Assembly (NCBI GenBank): GCA_963749705.1
Contig: CAVVNQ010000015.1
Location: 192,001 to 256,000 of the forward strand
Length of the DNA: 64,000 nt
DNA from: an uncultured Chloroflexia bacterium
GTDB taxonomy: Bacteria > Chloroflexota > Limnocylindria > Limnocylindrales > CSP1-4
Direction: 5' to 3'
Shown in pieces: positions 3,629 through 63,931 of the stretch (its first letter is position 1; the number at the start of each line of letters is the position of its first letter). A program made the translations under genes and the position numbers. The notes below the pieces were generated by a model that was not told where the DNA came from, did no database searches, and worked only from the letters and a program-made list of their open reading frames with translations.

Positions 3629-3897
3629 CGGTTCGTTGTCTCCTTCCGATCCGGCCGAGCCGCGCTTCCTGGGCGCGACGAGATCCGGCCGATCCTGCGT
3701 GCGGCGGGCATCAACGGACGGCGGGCGGGTGGGGCGCCGGCCCCGGCGGTCGGGCCTCGACGGAGCGACGGGTCGGCGGGGCCGGCGTGGTTCGACGGGC
3801 AGGACGAACCCTAGCGGTCGTGACTTCACGCACGCTTACGCGGGCGATGGCCCCGGGCGACCTCGGGCCCGGCCGCCAGCGCCGGGCGGACCGACGC

Positions 3898-4485
3898 TCA
3901 GCGGCTCCCGGTCCCTCGCTCGACCCCCGGCTCGGCTAGATCCGCGTCCGTCCCGCCGTCGTCCCCCGTGTCCGAATCCGGCTCCGGCTCGCGCGCCACG
4001 ACCACCTCCACCCGGGTCGCCTGCCGGAGGTCGTCGACGATGTCGCCGGTTCCGCTGAGGATGTGCTCGACGACGCCAGCCTCGTCCAGCGACGCCGGGA
4101 CGACGATCGTCTGAGCTCCCTGTCCGGCGGCGTACCGGGCGAGCGGCTCCGGGCCGTGCTCGGAGGGAAGCCACCCGTAGGCGTCCACGCCGAGCCCGCG
4201 CGCAGCGCTGACCTGGCGCGCGAGCGGCGCCCGACCGGCCCTCTCCAGTTGGGGGACGTCCAGCCTGCTCCCGAACTGCTCCGTCTCGCCGTCGGCCGAC
4301 CACCACGTCGGCAGCGGCGAGTCGAGGACCGATGCCGCATCCCAGTGGTAGAGGATCAGCGCCGCACCCGAACCGCGCGCGAGCTCCACGGCGAGTCGCC
4401 GGGCGGCGGCGAATCGATCGTCGTCCGAGGTGACGGCGACGATCGGGCGGGAGGCAGCGGGTCGGGTGGGCGTGGATTGCGTCAT
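3898..4485 (-). CDS. universal stress protein (UspA-like)
   Basis: IVAVTS...AARRLAVELARGSGAALILYH N-terminus and a C-terminal 'IVV...ILSGT...LRQATRVEVVVAR' pattern resembling the Usp fold. Confidence 0.6.
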   Translation of the reverse strand: MTQSTPTRPAASRPIVAVTSDDDRFAAARRLAVELARGSGAALILYHWDAASVLDSPLPTWWSADGETEQFGSRLDVPQLERAGRAPLARQVSAARGLGVDAYGWLPSEHGPEPLARYAAGQGAQTIVVPASLDEAGVVEHILSGTGDIVDDLRQATRVEVVVAREPEPDSDTGDDGGTDADLAEPGVERGTGSR

Positions 4486-56524: not shown

Positions 56525-57286
56525 TCAGCTGGTGGACACGGCCTTGAGCCCCGGCCTTGTCGTCGCGACGCGGGCGCTCCAGGGGACGCCCAGCCTGGGC
56601 AGCAGGTAGCGGTCCACCCCGTAGTAGCCGGCGACACGCCAGCCCAGGATCAGCCCGATGGCCAGGGCGAACATGACCGGGTTGACCGATGTCGAACCCG
56701 CCAGCAGGTAGGACATGTTCATGGTGGTGCCGAAGAAGGCCGCGATCCCGACCAGGGCGCCGGTCAGCAGGGCGATGCCGACGGCGAGCTCACCCAGGGC
56801 GATCAGCCAGCCGAACCAGCTCTGGGCCTGGATGTCGATCAGGAACTGGAGAAACGAGCGGTACCAGTCGAAGGTGATCGGGGCCGAGCCCTGTGCCGGC
56901 ACCTTGACCGCGTTCTGCCAGTAGCCGAGCAACGATGCGCCGCCGTCCGTCCAGCCGGTACCCGAGAGCTTGTGCCAGCCCGCGACGGCCCACTCGAAGC
57001 CCAGGAAGATCCGGATCGGCAGCCAGAACAGGCCCGCCCGAGTGTTGCTGAACAGGTAGCGGGTGAACGCCGGTCCCTCGACCTCGACAACCTCGGCGCC
57101 GGGCGACCTGCGGTCCTCGAACATCAGGACCACAACGACGACCGTGAGCACCCAGAACAGAATCGTCGCGACGGTCAGCGCCGTGGACCCCTGGGCGGGG
57201 TAGAACCACGGGTTCTCCATATAGACCAGGATCACCGCCGCGATCAGCGCGAGGGGCGTGACAAGGGACCGGTAACGAGCAAGCAC
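56525..57286 (-). CDS. DoxX/DoxD (TQO small subunit-like) membrane protein
   Basis: WLPIRIFLGFEW..AG..K, WYRSFL, GELAVGIAL, LLAGSTSVNP and AGYYGVDR motifs. Confidence 0.85.
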   Translation of the reverse strand: MLARYRSLVTPLALIAAVILVYMENPWFYPAQGSTALTVATILFWVLTVVVVVLMFEDRRSPGAEVVEVEGPAFTRYLFSNTRAGLFWLPIRIFLGFEWAVAGWHKLSGTGWTDGGASLLGYWQNAVKVPAQGSAPITFDWYRSFLQFLIDIQAQSWFGWLIALGELAVGIALLTGALVGIAAFFGTTMNMSYLLAGSTSVNPVMFALAIGLILGWRVAGYYGVDRYLLPRLGVPWSARVATTRPGLKAVSTS

Positions 57287-57510
57287 GGCAACCTCCCGGC
57301 GCCGCCCGGGTCCGTGGTCCGGTGATCACGGGCGGGCGACGATCGAGTGGCCATCCCGAGAGTAGGGGACGAGACCGCGGAACCCGCGTCGACGATGGTG
57401 GGGTCCCGCAATGCCCGCGGGGCGGTGCCCTTTGACGGGATGATGCGCAGCCGCACGTGAGAAGCCGCTGAGATGGCGCGGCAGCACGGACCGGGCACCG
57501 GGTGAGGTCG

Positions 57511-57532
57511 GCGTAGAGCCGGCATAGAGCGC
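57511..57532 (+). promoter_or_regulatory. putative SARP operator (direct repeats with 11-bp period), copy 1
   Basis: GCGTAGAGCCGGCATAGAGCGC, with TAGAGC at 57514 and 57525. It lies 83 nt upstream of the lipoprotein ATG and is 20/22 identical to copy 2. Confidence 0.7.
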
Positions 57533-57615
57533 GGATCGGGATCGTGCGCCGCGGGCTTCCACTACGGGCGCCGCGTCCAAGTGAGATAGGTCCGCGAAGC
57601 AGGAGCCGAGCTTCC

Positions 57616-58482
57616 ATGACGTTCCGATCCCGCATGCGTCGCACCTGGGCGATCGCCGTGACCATCCCGCTCGTCCTGTCTGCCGTTGCTGCCTGTTCCG
57701 GGTCGACGGCAGCCACGAGCGATGCAGCCAATCCGCCGAGTGCCACCCCGGCGGCAACGCCGGTCGCGACGGCGAGCCTGCCGGCGACGGCAAGCCCGCC
57801 GGCGTCGGCAGCGCCGTCCGAGGCGGCGTCCCCGCTGACCGTGACCTCCTCACTCGCGGACGGACCGCTCGCGCGCGCCGTCGAGTGGACTGCGCGCGTT
57901 TCCGGACCCACCGACGTGGCGATCGACCGTGTCGAATTCCTGCTCGACGGGAAGGTGGCCTGGACCGAGCACAACCCGCCGTACACGTTCAACGACGACG
58001 GCAACGTGCTCATGCCGTGGGCGCTCGAGCCTGGGACGCACCAGCTCGCGATCAACGTCGTCACGGCCTCGGGTGTCGCCACTTCGGCCCCGGTCACGGT
58101 GACCACGGACCGTCCGCCGGTGCCCGAGGCGCTTCTCGACCAGCGGTTCGTGCGGACCGTGCCGGCGAGCGCGACGGGACCCGTCGGCGACTGGCACCTG
58201 AAATTCGCGGCGGACGGCGTGATCACCTTGACCGACCCATGGGGCGGAGGTGTGACCGAGGGATTCCAGGCCGCTGCGGACGGGACAATGTCCCTGTACG
58301 GGCCGGCGAACTGGGTTGCGCCGGCCTCCCTCCGCGGCAGCATCTGCGACTACGCGGAGGGCGCGGTCGCAATGGGCTGGCAGGTCAAGGGCTCCGAGCT
58401 GACGCTGTCCTCCGGCGATCGCCCCGACCCGTGTCCGGATCGCGCATTCCTGTTCGTCGGCACCTGGACGGTCAGCCCCTGA
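57616..58482 (+). CDS. lipoprotein with an Ala/Pro/Ser/Thr linker, an Ig-like domain and a beta-rich C-terminal domain
   Basis: AGGAG RBS and lipobox VAAC. RVEFLLDG...PPYTF...LEPGTHQLAI resembles bacterial Ig-like domains. Confidence 0.75.
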   Translation: MTFRSRMRRTWAIAVTIPLVLSAVAACSGSTAATSDAANPPSATPAATPVATASLPATASPPASAAPSEAASPLTVTSSLADGPLARAVEWTARVSGPTDVAIDRVEFLLDGKVAWTEHNPPYTFNDDGNVLMPWALEPGTHQLAINVVTASGVATSAPVTVTTDRPPVPEALLDQRFVRTVPASATGPVGDWHLKFAADGVITLTDPWGGGVTEGFQAAADGTMSLYGPANWVAPASLRGSICDYAEGAVAMGWQVKGSELTLSSGDRPDPCPDRAFLFVGTWTVSP

Positions 58483-58489
58483 GAATCGC

Positions 58490-58518
58490 TTGACCGGGCG
58501 CCTCACGACGGCGACGAT
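58490..58518 (+). promoter_or_regulatory. putative promoter of the SARP-STAND-BMP gene
   Basis: TTGACC, 17-nt spacer, GACGAT, 39 nt before ATG 58558. Confidence 0.4.
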
Positions 58519-58557
58519 CCACCTTCGACCAACGGTCCTGACGCGCTGAGGGTTGCG

Positions 58558-61500
58558 ATGGACTTTCGCCTGCTCGGATCGCTCGAGGCCGTGGCCGGTG
58601 GGGTCACGGCCGACCTTGGGCCGCCCAAGCAGCGCGCCCTGCTCGCGGTCCTGTTGCTGCACGCCGGGGAGATCGTCTCCGTCGATCGGCTGATCGACGA
58701 CCTGTGGCCGGAGGCGCCGCCGCGCACGGCGGCGCACTCGATCCAGATCTACGTCTCGGAGCTGCGCAAGGCACTGTCGCGGCTCGCGCCCGGCGAGCTC
58801 ATCGTCACGCGCCAGCCGGGCTACCAGCTGCAGGCGCCCGACGATGCGATCGACACCCGCCGGTTCGAGCGGCTGGTCGAGGAGGGCCTGCAGCGCCTCC
58901 GGACGGGCGACCGGGTCGGGGGCATGGAGCGGCTTCGGGCGGCCCTGACCCTGTGGCGGGGGCCCGTCCTGTCCGACTTCGCCTACGAGGAGTTCGCCCA
59001 GCCGTACATCCGGCGGCTCACCGATCGGCATCTCGACGCGATCGAGGAGCTCGCCGCCGCGGAGCTCCTGGCCGGGCTCGTCGCCGACGCGCTTTCGCTC
59101 GTGGAGGCGGCCGTTCGCGAGGACCCGCTCCGCGAGCGGTCGCGCGAGATCCTGATGCTCGCGCTCTCCCGATCGGGTCGCCACGCCGAGGCCCTCCGGA
59201 CGTACCAGCGGCTCCGGGAGCTGCTCGACGACGAGCTCGGGCTGGATCCATCGCCGGCACTCCAGCAGCTCCAGCAGCGGATCCTGCTCCACGACCCGTC
59301 CCTCGCGCCGGCCTCGGAGGTTGCCGCGGGAACCGAGGAGCGGGCTCGAAATCCGTACAAGGGCCTGCGCGCGTTCACCGAGCAGGACGCCGCCGACTTC
59401 TTCGGCCGGGACGACCTGGCCGACCGCCTCGTCGACAGCCTGCGGGCCGGCCAACGCCTCGTCGCGCTCGTCGGCCCCTCGGGTTCGGGGAAGTCCAGCG
59501 TTCTCGCGGCCGGCCTGATCCCCAGGGTTCGCGCCGGCGCGATCGCGGGGTCTGTGCAGTGGGACGTCGTCCACGTCATCCCCGCGACCAACAACCTGGC
59601 TGAGATCGAAGCGACGGTGCGGACGCCGGCACCGCACCGACGGCTGCTCGTGCTCGACCAGTTCGAGGACCTGTTCGCCGTCGCCGACGAGCCGGCCAGA
59701 CGGCGCTTCCTCCAGACGATCTCGGCAGCGCTCCGTGACCCGGATGGAGCGGTCACGGTCGTGCTCGCCCTGCGGGCCGACTTCTACGACCGCCCGCTGC
59801 TCGATCCGGCGTTCGCCGAGATCTTCATCCCGGGCGTCATGAACGTCGTGCCCATGACGACCGACGAGCTCAAGGCGGCCGTCGCGGGCCCTGCGGAGCG
59901 TGCCGGGGTGAGCGTCGAGCCGGGGCTGCTCGCCGAGCTCGTCGCGGACACCGTGGCGCAGCCTGCGGCGCTGCCGCTGCTCCAGTTCGCCCTGACCGAG
60001 CTGTTCGACCGCGGCAACGGCGTGACGCTGACCCTGGCCGAGTACCGGGCGCTCGGCGCGCTCCACGGGATCCTGTCGCGCCGCGCCGAGGCCCTCTACG
60101 GTGGGCTCGACGCCGCCGGACGCCAGGTCGCCATGCAGGTGTTCCTGCGCCTCGTACGTCCCGGTCGGTCACCGATCGATTCGAGGCGGAGGCCATCGCT
60201 GTCGGAGCTCACAGACCTCGACGTCGACCCGGTCGCCCTGTCCGAGGTCCTCGACAGCTTCGGCCGCCACCGGCTCCTGGCCTTCGACCGCGACCCGGTC
60301 ACCGGCGACGCCACGGTCGAGGTGGCCCACGAGGCGCTGCTCCGCGAATGGGATCGCCTCGCCGGCTGGATCGATCGCCACCGCGCGGCTCTGCGGCGCC
60401 ACAGCTCGTTCGCCTCGGCCGCGGAGGAGTGGGAGGCCGCCGACCGCGACCCGGACTATCTCCTGACCGGGACACGCCTGGCGGAGTTCGAGACGACGAT
60501 CCGCGAGGGAGCGCTCCAGCTCACCGGGCGTGAGCGAGCGTTCCTCGAAGCGAGCCTGGAACGACGGCGCTCCGAGCAGGCGACTCAGACCGCGAGCGCC
60601 GCGGCCAGCCGCCGCCTGGAACGGCTTGCACGGATCCGCCTCGTGGGGCTCGGGATCGCGGTCGCGGCCGTGATCGTGCTCGGCGGGTACACCGCCCTGG
60701 GTCTCGCCACCCCGGTCCGGGCGCCCGTCTCGCTCATCTACAACGGGGACGGCGCGTGGTCGGTCGCGCTGATCGTCCAGGGCGGCTTCGATCGGGCGGT
60801 CACGGACTTCGGGCTGACCTCGCGCAAGATGTCCGTCATTTCCGGTCCGGCGGCGGACGACGCGATGCGGAGCGTGTCCCAGGGTGGCTCCGCGCTGGTG
60901 GTCGCGGCGGCCGTGGACGCCAACGTGGATTCCGTCGCGGCGGACTTCCCCGACACGCGCTACGCCGTGATCGACTTGCCCGCCGCGGAGCCCAACGTGA
61001 TCCACCTGGCGTTCGGTGACAACGAGAGCTCGTTCCTCGCCGGCGTGGTGGCGGCGAAGACGACGCGTACCGGCACGATCGGCTTCATCGGGGGCGCGGA
61101 CGGTCCCGTGATCTGGCCGTTCGCCGCGGGCTACGAGGCCGGGGCCCGGGCGGTGGACCCGTCGATCCGGATCCTGTCGGCGTACCTCGGCCGGGACGGC
61201 GACTACGAGGCCTACGTCGACCCGGCGGGCGCGTCCTCGGAGGCCATGTCGCAATTCCGCGGCGGCGCCGACGTCATCTTTGCGGCCGCGGGCGACTCGG
61301 GTGTCGGCGTGTTCAGTGCGGCGACCAGCGAATCGACAGCGCAGGGACGCCAGCTGTGGGCGATCGGCGTGGACTCGGACCAGTACGTAACCGTGGGCGA
61401 CAACCCGGTCAACGTCGGCTGGCGCGACTGGCAGCCGCACATCCTGACATCGGTCCTCAAGCGGATGGACACCGCGGTGTACGACCTGCTGGCGCAGTAC

Positions 61501-61719
61501 GCACGTGGCGATCTCGCGACCGGTACGCGGCGCCTCGGCCTCGCCGCCCATGGGGTCGACCTCTCGACCAGCGGCGGCTTCATCGATGGGCTTCGCGCCG
61601 AGATCGACACCTGGCGCGCGCGGATCGTCGCGGGGTCCGTCGCGGTGCCGTGCATCCCGGTCGGGCGCGAGGCCCAGGCTGGCGCGCTGGGCATCGACCC
61701 GACCGGGTGCGGCGGCTGA
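58558..61719 (+). CDS. SARP (wHTH+BTAD)-nSTAND NTPase-TM-BMP fusion, a putative transmembrane one-component regulator
   Basis: SARP/BTAD: MDFRLLGSLE, KQRALLA, YVSELRKAL, ALTLWRGPVL, DPLRER, ELGLDPS. nSTAND1-type: NPYKGL..F...DAADFFGR, GPSGSGKSS, VLDQFEDLF, LRADFY, LPLLQFAL, EVAHEALLREW. One TM helix at ~60634-60708. BMP: SFLAGVVAA, IGFIGG, GADVIFAAAG, AIGVDSDQ, ILTSVLK. Confidence 0.9.
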   Translation: MDFRLLGSLEAVAGGVTADLGPPKQRALLAVLLLHAGEIVSVDRLIDDLWPEAPPRTAAHSIQIYVSELRKALSRLAPGELIVTRQPGYQLQAPDDAIDTRRFERLVEEGLQRLRTGDRVGGMERLRAALTLWRGPVLSDFAYEEFAQPYIRRLTDRHLDAIEELAAAELLAGLVADALSLVEAAVREDPLRERSREILMLALSRSGRHAEALRTYQRLRELLDDELGLDPSPALQQLQQRILLHDPSLAPASEVAAGTEERARNPYKGLRAFTEQDAADFFGRDDLADRLVDSLRAGQRLVALVGPSGSGKSSVLAAGLIPRVRAGAIAGSVQWDVVHVIPATNNLAEIEATVRTPAPHRRLLVLDQFEDLFAVADEPARRRFLQTISAALRDPDGAVTVVLALRADFYDRPLLDPAFAEIFIPGVMNVVPMTTDELKAAVAGPAERAGVSVEPGLLAELVADTVAQPAALPLLQFALTELFDRGNGVTLTLAEYRALGALHGILSRRAEALYGGLDAAGRQVAMQVFLRLVRPGRSPIDSRRRPSLSELTDLDVDPVALSEVLDSFGRHRLLAFDRDPVTGDATVEVAHEALLREWDRLAGWIDRHRAALRRHSSFASAAEEWEAADRDPDYLLTGTRLAEFETTIREGALQLTGRERAFLEASLERRRSEQATQTASAAASRRLERLARIRLVGLGIAVAAVIVLGGYTALGLATPVRAPVSLIYNGDGAWSVALIVQGGFDRAVTDFGLTSRKMSVISGPAADDAMRSVSQGGSALVVAAAVDANVDSVAADFPDTRYAVIDLPAAEPNVIHLAFGDNESSFLAGVVAAKTTRTGTIGFIGGADGPVIWPFAAGYEAGARAVDPSIRILSAYLGRDGDYEAYVDPAGASSEAMSQFRGGADVIFAAAGDSGVGVFSAATSESTAQGRQLWAIGVDSDQYVTVGDNPVNVGWRDWQPHILTSVLKRMDTAVYDLLAQYARGDLATGTRRLGLAAHGVDLSTSGGFIDGLRAEIDTWRARIVAGSVAVPCIPVGREAQAGALGIDPTGCGG

Positions 61720-61748
61720 CCTCGGCCCCGCCGGCGGCAATGGCTGGG

Positions 61749-62195
61749 TCAGGGAATGACGGCGATCCCGACGTAGTGATCGTCGATCCCCTCCGCGTCG
61801 CACGAGTTGGTCGGGTAATACGTCCCGACGAGGGTCCCGGCACCGTGCATGCCCGCGAGGCTGCCGGTGCCGCCCGTGACCACCCAGCTGCCTTGGTCCT
61901 GCGGGTCGCAGGGGCGGACGCTCGCATGGATGTGGACATCGAAGGACCCGCCCGCGCAGGTGAACGTCTCGTGGACGTCGAACACGAGCGCCGCGCCGCG
62001 ACCAACGACCCGTGTGTCCTGCGCCAGGGTTCCGGCGTCGCAGTCCGGCAGCCCGGTGGCCGTGAACGTTGCCGGCCCTTCGAACCCGACGTGGGCGTCG
62101 ATCGTCACCGGCGTGGCAGCCGCGCCGCGGACCGGCGACACCGCCAGCGCGAGGAGCATCGAGGCCCCGATGAGAGAAGCAGATCGCCTGCGCAT
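61749..62195 (-). CDS. secreted small beta-rich protein with four Cys
   Basis: AGGAGG RBS, signal peptide MRRRSASLIGASMLLALAVSPVRGA and a GSWVVTGGTGSLAGMHGAG motif. Confidence 0.75.
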   Translation of the reverse strand: MRRRSASLIGASMLLALAVSPVRGAAATPVTIDAHVGFEGPATFTATGLPDCDAGTLAQDTRVVGRGAALVFDVHETFTCAGGSFDVHIHASVRPCDPQDQGSWVVTGGTGSLAGMHGAGTLVGTYYPTNSCDAEGIDDHYVGIAVIP

Positions 62196-62283
62196 CTGTG
62201 CGCCTCCTGATCGCGGGTCGTGTCGCTGGCGACACCACTCCGGGCGACCCGTTCCCGAGTGGCGCCCGCCCAGCGTCCACGCT

Positions 62284-62305
62284 GCGCTCTATCGCGGCTC
62301 TACGC
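62284..62305 (-). promoter_or_regulatory. putative SARP operator, copy 2
   Basis: The minus strand reads GCGTAGAGCCGCGATAGAGCGC, 88 nt upstream of ATG 62195, in the same orientation relative to its gene as copy 1. Confidence 0.7.
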
Positions 62306-62369
62306 GGCCGCTTCGCTTCCTCTGCGCAACGGTGGGACGTGGCGAGGGCCCGTGGCGAGGCCTGCCGGA

Positions 62370-63931
62370 TCAGCGGTTGGTGTGCTCCGTCGCGACCGTC
62401 CCGATGCGCTCGATCCCGGCGAACACGTCCGCGTAGTCGCGTACGGTTGTCGCGATCCCGGCCGGCTCGGGAGTGGGTGCAGCCCCGGCCACCGACGGGA
62501 CCGACGGCGCGGCCGCCGCCGCGACCTCGCTCGCCACCGTCGACACGACCCCGGCCGCGCGCCCGATCCAGCGCGGGAGGAATGCCGAGTTCGGGATCGT
62601 GCCGGCATCCATGCCGCTCGTCGTCCGGCGCAGCAGCGCCTCGATCTCGGGGCGGAGCCCGAGCGCCACGCCCCATACCAGGGCCTGGTCCGGGGTCTCG
62701 AGCCACTTGAGGCCAGTCGCCGTAACGGCGTCATCGAGCGTCGCCGACGTCGCGAACGTTGCCTTGAGCGTGCGGCGATACGCGGCCAGCTGGGCCTTCA
62801 TCACGGCGCCCTCGTGCGTGCGCGAGGCCATGAACCGGGCCAGGAGCCAGGTCGCGACGCCGCCGCCCGCGATGCCCAGGCCGACCCCGTAGACGAGCCC
62901 CTGGTCCGTGGCGCCCGCGGACGCCACCACCAGGCCGGCGACGACCTCGACCGCCGCCAGCCCCTCCCACTTCCAGCGGGCGATGAACGAGAGTCCCTTG
63001 ATCCAGCCCTTGCGGCGGGCGTAGTTCTCGACGAACGTCGCGAACCCGAGCGGCGGATGGAACCGCAGCGCGCGATCGCCGGGGATGTACGGCCCGGTCG
63101 CCCCGTCGGAGCCGGAACCGGTCGCAGACGCGGGGGCACCAGCAACGCGGTGCTTGCCCAGCCACGTGGTGAGCTCCGCCATCTCCTGGGCGGACGGGGC
63201 ATGCCCGGTGACGTCCTCGACGTGCCTGGCGAACGCCTCGGGATCCGCCGTCACCGCGTCGGGGTTGGCGAGCACCTCGCGCATGAGCGCCATCATCGGC
63301 GCCTGCCTCGCCTGGGAGGTGCGCAGCGATTCCGGGACCGGCTTGCCCGCCCGGGTGAGCGCCCCGATGAGCGACGCCTGGAGATCGGGTGTCGGTCCCG
63401 AGGTCATCCCCTCGACGAGGTCGCCGGGTGCGATGCCCTCAGGGCCCTTGGCCAGCGCGGCCGCGATGAACCCCGAGAACTCGGACATGGCAACCACGGC
63501 TTCCATGGCCCGGGCGTCGCCGGCGTCGTCGGCGACGTCGATCGCGGCATACGTCTTGAGGTTGGCGAGCAGCCAGGCCTCACCCTCGCCGACGGGCCGG
63601 CGACGGTTGAGCTGGATGCGGGGAGCATCCGTGTGCGTGCCGTGGATCTCGATCCCGACCCGGTGGGCGCCCCGCGCGTCGGGCGTCTCGTCGACGGAAC
63701 GCGATCTCGTCGCGGCTGGCGAGGTCGAACAGGGCGGCCATGAACGCGGTCGTCGCCGGTCCGCCGTCCACGATCGTCGCGGTTGCGGCCGTCATCCCCT
63801 CCGGCGGCGCGGGCAGGAGGATCGAGGCGATCATCGAGATACGAGGGGTCGCGGCCGGTCGCCCGCCAGCGCACCAGGACCCAACCCACCACGACCGCGA
63901 AGGCCACCAGCCCACCGACGATCGCCTGCAT
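62370..63931 (-). CDS. DUF2207-like membrane protein, broken by two +1 frameshifts (~63829 and ~63696)
   Basis: GGGAGG RBS then MQAIVGG, TM, WRATGRDP. Next frame: PPEGMTAA...ALFDLASR. Third frame: two TMs, RTHEGA...LAAYRRTL and ALVWGVALGL. Confidence 0.6.

What the first reader, a model, noticed from the sequence alone, without database searches (positions are those of the whole stretch)
57511..62305. Shared SARP-type operator upstream of both genes flanking the SARP-STAND-BMP regulator: a candidate complete mini-regulon
Seen: GCGTAGAGCCGGCATAGAGCGC (57511-57532, +) lies 83 nt before the lipoprotein gene. GCGTAGAGCCGCGATAGAGCGC (62284-62305, -) lies 88 nt before the secreted-protein gene. The two are 20/22 identical and in the same orientation relative to their genes, and each has TAGAGC twice at an 11-bp period. 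I did not notice the element elsewhere in the window. Established: SARP activators (AfsR, ActII-ORF4, DnrI) bind direct repeats spaced one helical turn (11 bp) near the -35 region. Inference: the central regulator activates these two exported proteins in response to an external ligand, so sensor, operator and outputs all lie within 4.8 kb.
Basis: partly seen in the sequence, partly recalled or inferred. Interest (0 to 1): 0.85.

Follow-up and report, generated by a model that had tools for sequence, protein, structure and literature searches.

The report
Operator boxes of a membrane-bound SARP regulator
Two matching 22-base DNA boxes flank a sensor-regulator gene of an uncultured soil bacterium and look like that regulator's own docking sites, so sensor, switch and output genes form one small unit that seems to move between genomes together.

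Summary
The two 22-mers sit at the stated coordinates and are 20/22 identical. They are the only exact TAGAGC-N5-TAGAGC sites in the 3.6-Mb genome.

Comparative data support the SARP-operator reading. A box with at most 1 mismatch lies in promoter position in 24 of 31 loci that encode orthologues of the regulator (wHTH-BTAD-nSTAND1-TM-Bmp). The 8-bp cores (CRTAGAGC) are fixed and the 3-bp spacers vary. No such box occurs in 30 loci of more distant SARP relatives.

A -10-like nAnnnT sits in one fixed register in 26 of 37 dereplicated sites. If the transcript starts 7 nt after it, the box spans -40 to -19. That is the geometry published for AfsR at afsS.

In most relatives the box lies directly upstream of the regulator gene, which suggests autoregulation. 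In this window a lipoprotein gene sits between the box and a sigma-70-like promoter in front of the regulator.

Targets differ between genomes but are mostly small exported or membrane proteins. Homology to one relative runs only from box to box, so the unit may move as a cassette.

Binding, activation and the ligand are untested. I rate it a new variant of a known kind.

The parts
57512..57533 (+). Left 22-bp box: two 11-bp direct repeats, CGTAGAGCCGG and CATAGAGCGCG. Predicted promoter position is -40 to -19.
57540..57545 (+). -10-like hexamer GATCGT (A at position 2, T at position 6). It lies 6 bp after the box, or 8 bp after the heptamer TAGAGCG. The predicted transcription start is near 57552.
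   Evidence: Register p27-32 of the site profile. A28 and T32 occur together in 26 of 37 dereplicated sites. The start site is inferred, not measured.
57616..58482 (+). Lipoprotein gene (P0003, 288 aa; lipobox VAAC; weak Big_7 match). This is output gene 1.
   Evidence: PF17957, E 4e-4, below the cut-off; hypothetical family. Orthologues in G083, G084 and G010 keep the same position. A 303-aa lipoprotein of very similar sequence sits there in L077 (judged by eye, not scored).
58490..58518 (+). Sigma-70-like promoter P2 in the lipoprotein-regulator gap: TTGACC, 17 nt, GACGAT.
   Evidence: TTGAC[CG]-17 or 18-nAnnnT lies 52-68 nt before the regulator start in 15 of 32 loci. TTGACC is the fifth most enriched hexamer, after TAGAGC and three words that overlap it.
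58558..61719 (+). Regulator P0001 (1053 aa): Trans_reg_C wHTH 23-91, BTAD 98-243, nSTAND1 266-633, one hydrophobic helix at about 690-716, Bmp/PnrA-like domain about 789-1017.
61749..62195 (-). Secreted 148-aa protein P0002. It has no Pfam family and is predicted to be an 8-stranded beta structure with weak likeness to dirigent/AOC-like barrels. This is output gene 2.
62272..62277 (-). -10-like hexamer GACGCT, one base closer to the box than the modal register.
   Evidence: (one of the 3 sites at shift -1).
62283..62304 (-). Right 22-bp box: CGTAGAGCCGC and GATAGAGCGCA on the minus strand.

Best explanation
The two elements are SARP boxes, the operators of the regulator encoded between them. 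Each box consists of two 11-bp direct repeats with consensus C-R-T-A-G-A-G-C-N-N-N.

By analogy with AfsR, two SARP domains (wHTH plus BTAD) would sit side by side on one face of the helix. Each would read the first 8 bp of one repeat, at about -40 to -19, in place of a -35 element. Together they would recruit RNA polymerase to a weak -10 (nAnnnT) 6 bp downstream of the box.

The regulator appears to be membrane-anchored. The DNA-binding and nSTAND1 NTPase parts would face the cytoplasm, followed by one transmembrane helix and a Bmp/PnrA-type ligand-binding domain outside. The proposed chain is: external ligand, then NTP-dependent switching or oligomerisation of the STAND module, then an active SARP dimer at the boxes.

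In this window the outputs are a lipoprotein and a small secreted beta-barrel protein. The lipoprotein may be co-transcribed with the regulator, which would give positive feedback. A sigma-70-like promoter just upstream of the regulator would supply basal expression.

Shown here: the boxes, their uniqueness in the genome, their conservation and placement next to orthologues, the fixed -10-like element, and the domain make-up. Inferred: who binds the boxes, the sign of regulation, the transcription start, the membrane topology and the ligand.
For: (1) The boxes are unique in the genome. There are 2 exact sites in 3.6 Mb, both flanking this gene.

(2) They are conserved next to orthologues. TAGAGC-type boxes with at most 1 mismatch lie 57-134 nt upstream of the regulator or of an adjacent gene in 24 of 31 orthologue loci (window, L068-L070, L074-L100). 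One more locus has a 2-mismatch box (L082) and two have a TTGAGCG-N4-TTGAGCG variant (L069, L070). Spacers differ even between 92-95% identical orthologues, while the hexamers are kept.

(3) They are specific. There are 23 exact TAGAGC-N5-TAGAGC pairs in L074-L100 plus L104, and none in the other 30 loci of L101-L131, which encode more distant SARP relatives. The reversed control gives 1 hit in 404 kb.

(4) A blind test agrees. In 22 orthologue loci, with the window's clade left out, TAGAGC is the most enriched hexamer in the 150 nt before the regulator: 25 seen against 0.65 expected, in 16 of 22 loci.

(5) The box follows the regulator through rearrangements. It is found as box-lipoprotein-regulator with a convergent target (window, G010, G084), box-regulator plus box-target (G078, L078-L080, L086, L091, L098), and box-target-box-regulator on one strand (G085).

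(6) The geometry matches published SARP promoters. C at -1, R at 0, C at 10 and R at 11 are enriched in the flanks. A at +28 and T at +32 each occur in 27 of 37 sites, against backgrounds of 0.16 and 0.14. The joint nAnnnT is in one register in 26 of 37 sites and in almost no other register. Passages of PMC10936776 state that SARP repeats are spaced 11 bp, that the 3' repeat lies 8 bp from the -10, that the afs box spans -40 to -19, and that each protomer contacts the first 8 bp of its repeat and not the last 3.

(7) The protein is SARP-like. Residues 3-333 match AfsR at E 6e-42 and residues 1-259 match EmbR at 1.8e-40.

(8) The recognition helix co-varies with the box. All loci with a TAGAGC box have PPRTAxHS[IV]QIY. 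The two TTGAGC loci have PPRHAAHAIQVY. The loci without a box differ more.

(9) No canonical sigma-70 promoter was found by the consensus scan of 57300-62500. That would fit activator dependence, but the same scan also missed the P2 promoter that I propose at 58490-58518, so it says little.
Against: No binding, footprint, transcript start or expression data exist. The -10 element and the -40 to -19 placement are predictions.

The 40 sites were chosen by their match to the TAGAGC core, so core conservation in the profile is partly by construction. Only the flanks, the spacers and the -10 register are independent of that choice. Many loci are related, so the binomial P values overstate significance.

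Three divergent orthologue loci (L094, L095, L097; 41-42% identity) show no box. L084 has no upstream sequence. L088 has a box only downstream of the regulator.

In the window's right promoter the -10-like hexamer is 1 bp closer than the modal register.

The AfsR residues that read bases (T88, R92) align with I64 and E68 here, so the mode of base recognition cannot be copied from AfsR.

A DNA-binding domain about 690 residues from a membrane anchor is plausible but unproven. The transmembrane call rests on hydropathy alone.

The helix-box covariation rests on a single clade change.
Confidence: 0.8

Rival explanations
1. The boxes are the terminal inverted repeats of a mobile, non-autonomous gene cassette, not operators.
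For: The two copies are inverted and bracket the three genes. Against G010 (88% DNA identity inside), homology runs only from window 57512 to 62332, so it begins at the left box and ends 27 nt past the right box, and the flanks are unrelated. Against G084 the left edge is also 57512. The cassette is patchy in the genus: 10 of 70 genomes have a match at E <= 1e-90.
Against: None of the three genes has a transposase or integrase domain. On the right side homology continues 27 nt beyond the box. No flanking duplication is visible. No empty site was found. G083 and G085 share the window's left flank. In other loci the boxes occur singly, in direct orientation, or three per locus. They always lie 57-134 nt before a start codon and usually have a -10-like hexamer in fixed register. 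Spacers drift while the 8-bp cores are kept at an 11-bp period, which is what a protein that binds one face of the helix would select for.
Confidence: 0.04
2. The boxes are real promoter elements but are bound by a different factor, such as a paralogous SARP, another OmpR-type regulator or an alternative sigma factor.
For: The genome encodes several other SARP/nSTAND1 proteins. No binding data exist.
Against: Across rearranged loci the one gene family always present beside the box is the P0001-type regulator, though the list of loci was itself built from that regulator. No TAGAGC box occurs in 30 loci of more distant SARP relatives. The box variant tracks the recognition helix of the adjacent regulator. 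The hexamer-to-(-10) spacings of 9 and 20 nt do not fit a sigma -35/-10 pair. In G060, where no orthologue was found at E <= 1e-90, the gene downstream of the box has decayed.
Confidence: 0.08
3. The adjacent SARP binds the boxes but represses the flanking genes, or acts only as an autoregulatory brake, instead of activating them.
For: A box spanning -40 to -19 would also block RNA polymerase if the protein made no productive contact with sigma. Some wHTH regulators work in both directions.
Against: A BTAD domain is present. The promoters have no recognisable -35 and only a weak -10. The geometry equals that of the activating AfsR-afsS complex. Regulator genes with a box also carry a separate sigma-70-like promoter downstream, which is what an activator needs for basal expression.
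Confidence: 0.06
4. The two elements resemble each other by chance.
For: The short 12-base pattern with mismatches is not rare in the window.
Confidence: 0.01

Closest known systems
AfsR and its afs box at the afsS promoter (Streptomyces coelicolor; large SARP)
   Same: The protein starts with a wHTH and a BTAD, followed by a STAND NTPase (AfsR match E 6e-42). The operator is 22 bp, made of two 11-bp direct repeats with 8 conserved and 3 free positions. Its predicted span is -40 to -19, it has no -35 element, and a weak -10 follows 6 bp after the box (compared with passages of PMC10936776). The first repeat positions C, G/R, T are shared with the AfsR repeat CGTT(T/C)ATCGNN quoted in PMC10972967.
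   Different: The repeat core is TAGAGC, not TT(T/C)ATCG. The NTPase is nSTAND1 (PF20703), not NB-ARC. The C-terminus is a transmembrane helix plus a Bmp domain instead of TPR. The AfsR base-reading residues T88 and R92 align with I64 and E68. The host is a Chloroflexota MAG by relatives' record titles. The targets are exported proteins, not a regulator of antibiotic synthesis.
Pathway-specific small SARPs (ActII-ORF4, DnrI, RedD) with heptameric TCGAGXX-type repeats
   Same: Direct repeats at an 11-bp period overlap the -35 region. The hexamer TAGAGC is one base away from TCGAGC. That consensus is recalled from memory. The review passages confirm heptameric repeats that overlap the -35 region.
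   Different: Those proteins have only the SARP domain and sit in biosynthetic gene clusters. Many of their sites have three repeats. This regulator is a 1053-aa multidomain, membrane-anchored protein with two repeats per site.
Membrane-bound one-component regulators of the ToxR/CadC type
   Same: The layout works the same way: an N-terminal cytoplasmic OmpR-type wHTH, a single membrane span and an external sensor domain in one polypeptide, so the signal crosses the membrane without a phosphorelay. The ToxR/CadC layout is recalled from memory.
   Different: ToxR and CadC have no BTAD or STAND module and a much shorter cytoplasmic part. No sequence relationship beyond the wHTH was tested. This is not a member of that family.
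Bmp/PnrA (TmpC) nucleoside-binding lipoproteins of ABC importers
   Same: The C-terminal domain matches Pfam Bmp at E 6e-36 and solved Bmp-family lipoproteins at E 5e-36 to 3e-23.
   Different: Here the domain is fused behind a transmembrane helix to a transcription factor instead of serving a transporter. The ligand is unknown. The NCBIfam B6-binding model scores far below its cut-off (86.6 against 400 bits).

Membership tests
SARP regulators (protein) | N-terminal OmpR-type winged-helix DNA-binding domain | tested here: met
   PF00486 Trans_reg_C, residues 23-91, E 4.6e-11, 43.1 bits against a cut-off of 26.2.
SARP regulators (protein) | BTAD domain directly after the wHTH | tested here: met
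   PF03704 BTAD, residues 98-243, E 1.4e-39. Matches AfsR at 6e-42 and EmbR at 1.8e-40.
Large SARPs of the AfsR type | NB-ARC NTPase plus C-terminal TPR domain | tested here: not met
   The NTPase matches nSTAND1 (PF20703, E 2.9e-100) and no NB-ARC hit was listed. The C-terminus is Bmp, not TPR. The NCBIfam AfsR equivalog scores 174.6 bits against a cut-off of 1430.
SARP box (operator) | Direct repeats spaced 11 bp (one helical turn) | tested here: met
   TAGAGC starts at 57514 and 57525, and at 62302 and 62291 on the minus strand. The same period holds in all 40 compiled sites, but by selection. The flanking C-R at both repeats is not a product of selection.
SARP box (operator) | [quoted passage not shown] | tested here: met
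   With a predicted -10 only. The nAnnnT sits at p27-32, 8 bp after the heptamer that ends at p18, in 26 of 37 dereplicated sites. The window's left site is in register and its right site is 1 bp closer. The consensus scan found no sigma-70 promoter, though it also missed the proposed P2 promoter. No transcript start has been measured.
SARP box (operator) | Bound by the SARP domain and required for activation | not testable with these tools
   Needs EMSA or footprinting and reporter assays. No RNA run holds the locus.
STAND NTPases | P-loop NTPase module of a STAND clade | tested here: met
   PF20703 nSTAND1 over the full model length (1-379 of 379), residues 266-633. The Walker A-like GPSGSGKS is visible.
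Membrane-bound one-component regulator (works like, not a member) | A single transmembrane helix between the cytoplasmic DNA-binding part and the external sensor | tested here: inconclusive
   One hydrophobic stretch at about 690-716 (Kyte-Doolittle 19-residue mean 2.26, the protein's maximum), preceded by an R-rich segment. No dedicated topology predictor was available.
Bmp/PnrA substrate-binding proteins | Bmp fold domain | tested here: met
   PF02608, E 6.2e-36, residues 789-1017. PDB relatives 6yab and 2fqw. Ligand residues were not examined.
Transposon or MITE-like element with terminal inverted repeats | Transposase gene, target-site duplication, homology ending exactly at both repeats | tested here: not met
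   No transposase domain in the three genes. No duplication seen next to the boxes. The left edge coincides with the box but the right edge lies 27 nt beyond it.

The most novel reading that the evidence does not exclude
This may be a self-contained, horizontally transferable module of sensor, operator and output. A single membrane-spanning SARP-STAND protein would read an extracellular small molecule through its Bmp domain and fire promoters that travel with it. The cargo slot would be filled by interchangeable exported proteins: the P0002 barrel family, GYP/HGGLAGPS-repeat membrane proteins, AWTDRL-repeat proteins and Big-domain lipoproteins. The module appears in MAGs labelled Chloroflexota and in MAGs labelled Actinomycetota. 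That would be a class of SARP signalling not covered by the small, medium, large and SARP-LAL scheme. It would work at the membrane and outside antibiotic gene clusters.
Probability: 0.35. Interest if true: 0.75.

Novelty: new variant of a known kind. Interest (0 to 1): 0.6.

Why it matters
SARPs have been studied almost entirely as activators of antibiotic clusters in actinomycetes. Their large forms are poorly understood, and the review read here (passages) lists no membrane-anchored class.

This locus yields a full, testable prediction from sequence alone, in an uncultured soil lineage. It names the regulator, gives the operator consensus (CRTAGAGCNNN twice), gives the promoter geometry to the base pair, and lists the output genes.

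It offers a simple system for asking how a STAND NTPase couples a ligand-binding domain to a SARP dimer. It would also give a compact, orthogonal sensor-promoter pair for synthetic biology, if it is confirmed and the ligand is found.

It is not a new principle of gene regulation.

Tried and rejected
Chance was rejected.

Terminal inverted repeats were considered seriously, because homology to G010 stops at the boxes. I rejected them as the main reading for the reasons given under rival explanations. A search for an empty site using G010's flanks found nothing useful.

An RNA element was checked. The Rfam scan of 57200-62600 at E <= 1 gave only a sub-threshold Guanidine-II hit inside the regulator's coding sequence (21.6 bits against a gathering score of 32), taken as chance.

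For expression or transcript-start evidence, no RNA holder is listed for the locus. Only 4 soil DNA runs from one study hold small shares of it.

On the function of P0002, 0 of 10 sampled family members have a Pfam hit that explains the family. The Foldseek matches are weak (best E 2e-3, TM 0.49) and the Atlas leads score below 0.9. The barrel assignment is therefore a lead only. P0003 has only a sub-threshold Big_7 hit and belongs to a hypothetical family.

Other exact boxes in the genus lie away from the regulator. G054 and G076 share TAGAGCGCTCGTAGAGC, which resembles a word recurring in many genomes. The one-mismatch relative I checked lies inside a long open frame (L057); the G054 site itself lies at the very end of one (L050). 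The box at G085:C11 overlaps the end of a response-regulator reading frame. I did not count these as regulon members.

Complex prediction, a second structure job and fold search in other libraries were not used. I claim no protein-protein binding.

Literature: five searches found no paper on SARP regulators in Chloroflexota or on a SARP-nSTAND1-Bmp architecture. This covers only the held library. Supplementary files were not opened.


Full report
**1. The observation**

Each points towards a gene with a good ribosome-binding site. The left box lies 83 nt before ATG 57616 of a 288-aa lipoprotein. The right box lies 88 nt before ATG 62195 of a 148-aa protein with a signal peptide.

Between them lies a 1053-aa protein. 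Its domains are Trans_reg_C, BTAD, nSTAND1 and Bmp, with one strongly hydrophobic helix at about 690-716 between nSTAND1 and Bmp.

Similarity between the two upstream regions is essentially limited to the 22-mer.

In the whole 3.6-Mb assembly, which is 71.5% G+C, TAGAGC-N5-TAGAGC occurs exactly twice, at these two places. There is 1 one-mismatch site and there are 46 two-mismatch sites, several of them tRNA genes. The reversed control pattern gives 0/27/399.

**2. Relatives**

A search of 70 genomes of the same genus found close orthologues in G083 (95%), G084 (93%) and G010 (92%). More distant ones were in G078 and G085 (about 73-75%), G017 (55%) and G052 (49%).

Exact boxes are rare in the genus: 12 in 70 genomes by my count. 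Eight of them lie within 1.3 kb of such an orthologue.

G010 and G084 keep the arrangement box, lipoprotein, regulator, convergent P0002 gene and box. Their spacers differ, for example TAGAGCGTTCATAGAGC and TAGAGCCGACGTAGAGC in G010. In G083 the contig ends before the right box.

G078 has no lipoprotein gene. One box lies 87 nt before the regulator's own start, one lies before the P0002 homologue, and a third, divergent box lies before a 269-aa exported protein. In G085 the order is box, P0002-like gene, box, regulator, all on one strand.

G052 and G017 carry a variant, TTGAGCG-N4-TTGAGCG, 63 nt before a 167-aa secreted-protein gene just downstream of the regulator. Again the spacer differs between the two genomes.

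**3. A wider sample**

The search for related loci returned 62 loci. The record titles name MAGs of "uncultured Chloroflexia" or "Candidatus Limnocylindria/Limnocylindrales", and some "Actinomycetota" or "Acidimicrobiia". These labels are the submitters' own.

I scanned the first 58 loci (L074-L131, 404 kb). The last four (L132-L135) are Nannocystis and Bradyrhizobium records with weak partial matches and were left out. Exact TNGAGC-N5-TNGAGC occurs 28 times there, against once for the reversed control. Of these, 23 are exact TAGAGC pairs, all in L074-L100 or L104. The other 30 loci of L101-L131 have none.

I then allowed one mismatch and counted 31 orthologue loci: the window, L068, L069, L070 and L074-L100. 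Four of these are the same places as G010, G078, G083 and G084.
- 24 loci have a TAGAGC-type box 57-134 nt upstream of the regulator or of a neighbouring gene.
- L082 has a 2-mismatch box in front of a P0002 homologue that precedes the regulator.
- L069 and L070 have the TTGAGC variant.
- L084 has no upstream sequence.
- L094, L095 and L097, the most divergent at 41-42% identity, have none.

A blind hexamer count used the 150 nt upstream of the regulator in 22 loci, with the window's clade left out. TAGAGC came first, with 25 seen against 0.65 expected, in 16 of 22 loci.

**4. Anatomy of the site**

I compiled 40 sites by hand. I kept those in promoter position next to the regulator and dropped TCGAGC/TGGAGC-type and intragenic hits. 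The compilation for one search then dropped the overlapping second box of L089 and added the 2-mismatch box of L082, so it again held 40 sites.

The core is conserved by construction, but the flanks are not. They give C-R-TAGAGC-N3-C-R-TAGAGC, that is, two 11-bp repeats with 8 informative and 3 free positions.

Dereplication at 60% flank identity left 37 sites. Downstream of the box, A at +28 occurs in 27 of 37 (background 0.16), T at +32 in 27 of 37 (background 0.14) and G at +25 in 25 of 37. The pair A28/T32 occurs in register in 26 sites, at shift -1 in 3 sites, at shift +2 in 2 sites, and almost never at other shifts. These sites are related, so the P values are optimistic.

I read this as a -10 hexamer, nAnnnT, at +27 to +32, with a G at the extended -10 position. 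If the transcript starts 7 nt after it, the 22-bp box spans -40 to -19.

Passages of PMC10936776 state four things that match:
- SARP repeats are 11 or 22 bp apart.
- The 3' repeat is 8 bp from the -10.
- The afs box is two 11-bp repeats centred at -29.5, with the upstream repeat at -40 to -30.
- Each SARP protomer contacts the first 8 bp of its repeat and not the last 3.

The same paper reports that T-38 is essential in AfsR's box. The invariant T of TAGAGC falls at -38 in my numbering.

In the window the left promoter is in the modal register (GATCGT, 57540-57545). The right promoter has GACGCT one base closer (62272-62277).

**5. The regulator**

Residues 3-333 align with AfsR without gaps through the recognition helix, at an offset of +24. 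W50, P55, R70 and K71 correspond to AfsR W74, P79, R94 and K95. The AfsR base-reading residues T88 and R92 correspond to I64 and E68, so a different repeat sequence is expected.

All loci with a TAGAGC box share PPRTAxHS[IV]QIY[VI]S. The TTGAGC loci have PPRHAAHAIQVYVS. The box-less loci differ more. This covariation is suggestive only, because it rests on one clade.

The NTPase is nSTAND1, not NB-ARC, and the C-terminus is Bmp rather than TPR. The protein is therefore a SARP but not an AfsR-type large SARP. The review PMC10972967 (passages) lists small, medium, large and SARP-LAL classes, and the word "transmembrane" does not occur in it.

**6. Autoregulation and a second promoter**

In the window's clade the gap between lipoprotein and regulator holds a conserved TTGACC-17-GACGAT (58490-58518).

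TTGAC[CG]-17/18-nAnnnT lies 52-68 nt before the regulator start in 15 of 32 loci. In six of the eight such loci where a box is directly upstream, the box sits 42-45 nt before this TTGACC. In the other two (L068, L083) it sits 71-72 nt before it.

I infer tandem promoters: a box-dependent P1 and a basal P2. In the window's clade the lipoprotein gene lies between them. No terminator-like site was found between the lipoprotein and the regulator, so read-through from P1 into the regulator is possible but not shown.

**7. Outputs**

The genes downstream of boxes are diverse:
- the P0002 family
- membrane-anchored proteins with GYP/HGGLAGPS-like repeats (L078, L086, L098)
- proteins with AWTDRL-like repeats (L081, L091), plus a small protein in the same position in L089 whose likeness to them I did not test
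- the Big_7-like lipoprotein
- a 269-aa exported protein
- a 167-aa secreted protein

In two further loci the best frame after the box is not a convincing exported protein: L088 (a 177-aa low-complexity frame) and L079 (two different short frames).

A profile of 9 P0002-family sequences finds 1054 representative clusters at E <= 1e-3, and 0 of 10 sampled members have a Pfam hit that explains the family. The model (pLDDT 87.8) is an 8-stranded beta structure. It has weak matches to dirigent proteins, AbmU-type Diels-Alderases and pyocyanin demethylase (best E 2e-3, TM 0.49). Independent but sub-threshold Atlas leads point to AOC_like and DUF3224.

A secreted barrel that binds a small molecule is therefore a lead, not a finding.

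**8. The cassette**

Against G010 the homology block is window 57512-62332 only. Against G084 it starts at 57512 and continues rightwards. G083 and G085 share the left flank. No empty site was found.

Three further observations fit a unit that is gained, lost and perhaps transferred as a whole. The unit is patchily distributed. It occurs in MAGs carrying different phylum labels. In G060 an exact box sits in front of a frameshifted, truncated P0002-like gene, and no orthologue of the regulator was found there at E <= 1e-90.

I regard the boxes as the natural outer ends of a functional unit, not as transposon ends.

**9. Verdict**

The added points are autoregulation, promoter geometry, variable cargo and modular inheritance.

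What is new is the variant, not the principle: a membrane-anchored SARP-nSTAND1-Bmp regulator with a TAGAGC box, in Limnocylindria. No experiment or transcript data exist, and no RNA run holds the locus.

Noticed in passing
window 58490-58518: A conserved sigma-70-like promoter (TTGACC, 17 nt, GACGAT) lies in the 75-nt gap between the lipoprotein and regulator genes. The same element lies 52-68 nt before the regulator start in 15 of 32 loci. Where a box is directly upstream, it is usually 42-45 nt before this element.
   Followed up: yes
window 57512-62332 compared with L066 (G010), L065 (G084), L064 (G083), L068 (G085): DNA homology to G010 covers only the stretch from the left box to 27 nt past the right box, and the flanks are unrelated. 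Other relatives share one flank. The three-gene unit behaves as a cassette.
   Followed up: partly
L071 (G060:C8) 3802-4171: An exact box (TAGAGCCGCACTAGAGC) sits before a P0002-like gene that is broken across three reading frames and lacks its C-terminal half. No orthologue of the regulator was found in that genome at E <= 1e-90.
   Followed up: partly
L067/L087 (G078) and L068 (G085:C19): In these two relatives the regulator reads as split frames: 824 + 153 + 116 aa, and 743 + 345 aa. The breaks are around the transmembrane/Bmp part. This could be real decay or indel errors in the MAG assembly.
   Followed up: no
G000:C15:107984 and G000:C3:352365 (outside the window): Two other SARP-type genes of the same genome have their own, different 11-bp direct repeats upstream: GCCTAAAGGCG/GCCTTAAGTCG at about -70, and GCAGCATCTGT/GCAGCATCGTC at about -205. 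Each paralogue may have a private box.
   Followed up: no
L078 6368-6739, L086 6384-6863, L098 6331-6690; L081 2448-2810, L091 6380-6754: Box-controlled genes in other genomes encode small membrane-anchored proteins with tandem GYP/HGGLAGPS-like repeats, or small proteins with AWTDRL-like repeats. Both are uncharacterised.
   Followed up: no
window 61749-62195 (P0002): P0002 belongs to a large family without a Pfam model (1054 representative clusters at E <= 1e-3). It has conserved Cys and GGTG motifs and a predicted 8-stranded beta fold weakly like dirigent/AOC barrels.
   Followed up: partly
window 62227-62243 (-), L087 about 6975, L071 about 3850: A short word, AACGG(G)TCGCC, recurs 25-45 nt downstream of the box in three promoters. 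Two of them precede P0002-family genes and the third precedes the 269-aa exported protein of G078. It would fall in the predicted 5' leader. Its meaning is unknown.
   Followed up: no
window 59403-59442: A sub-threshold Rfam Guanidine-II hit (21.6 bits against a gathering score of 32, E 0.38) lies inside the regulator's coding sequence. It is taken as chance.
   Followed up: no
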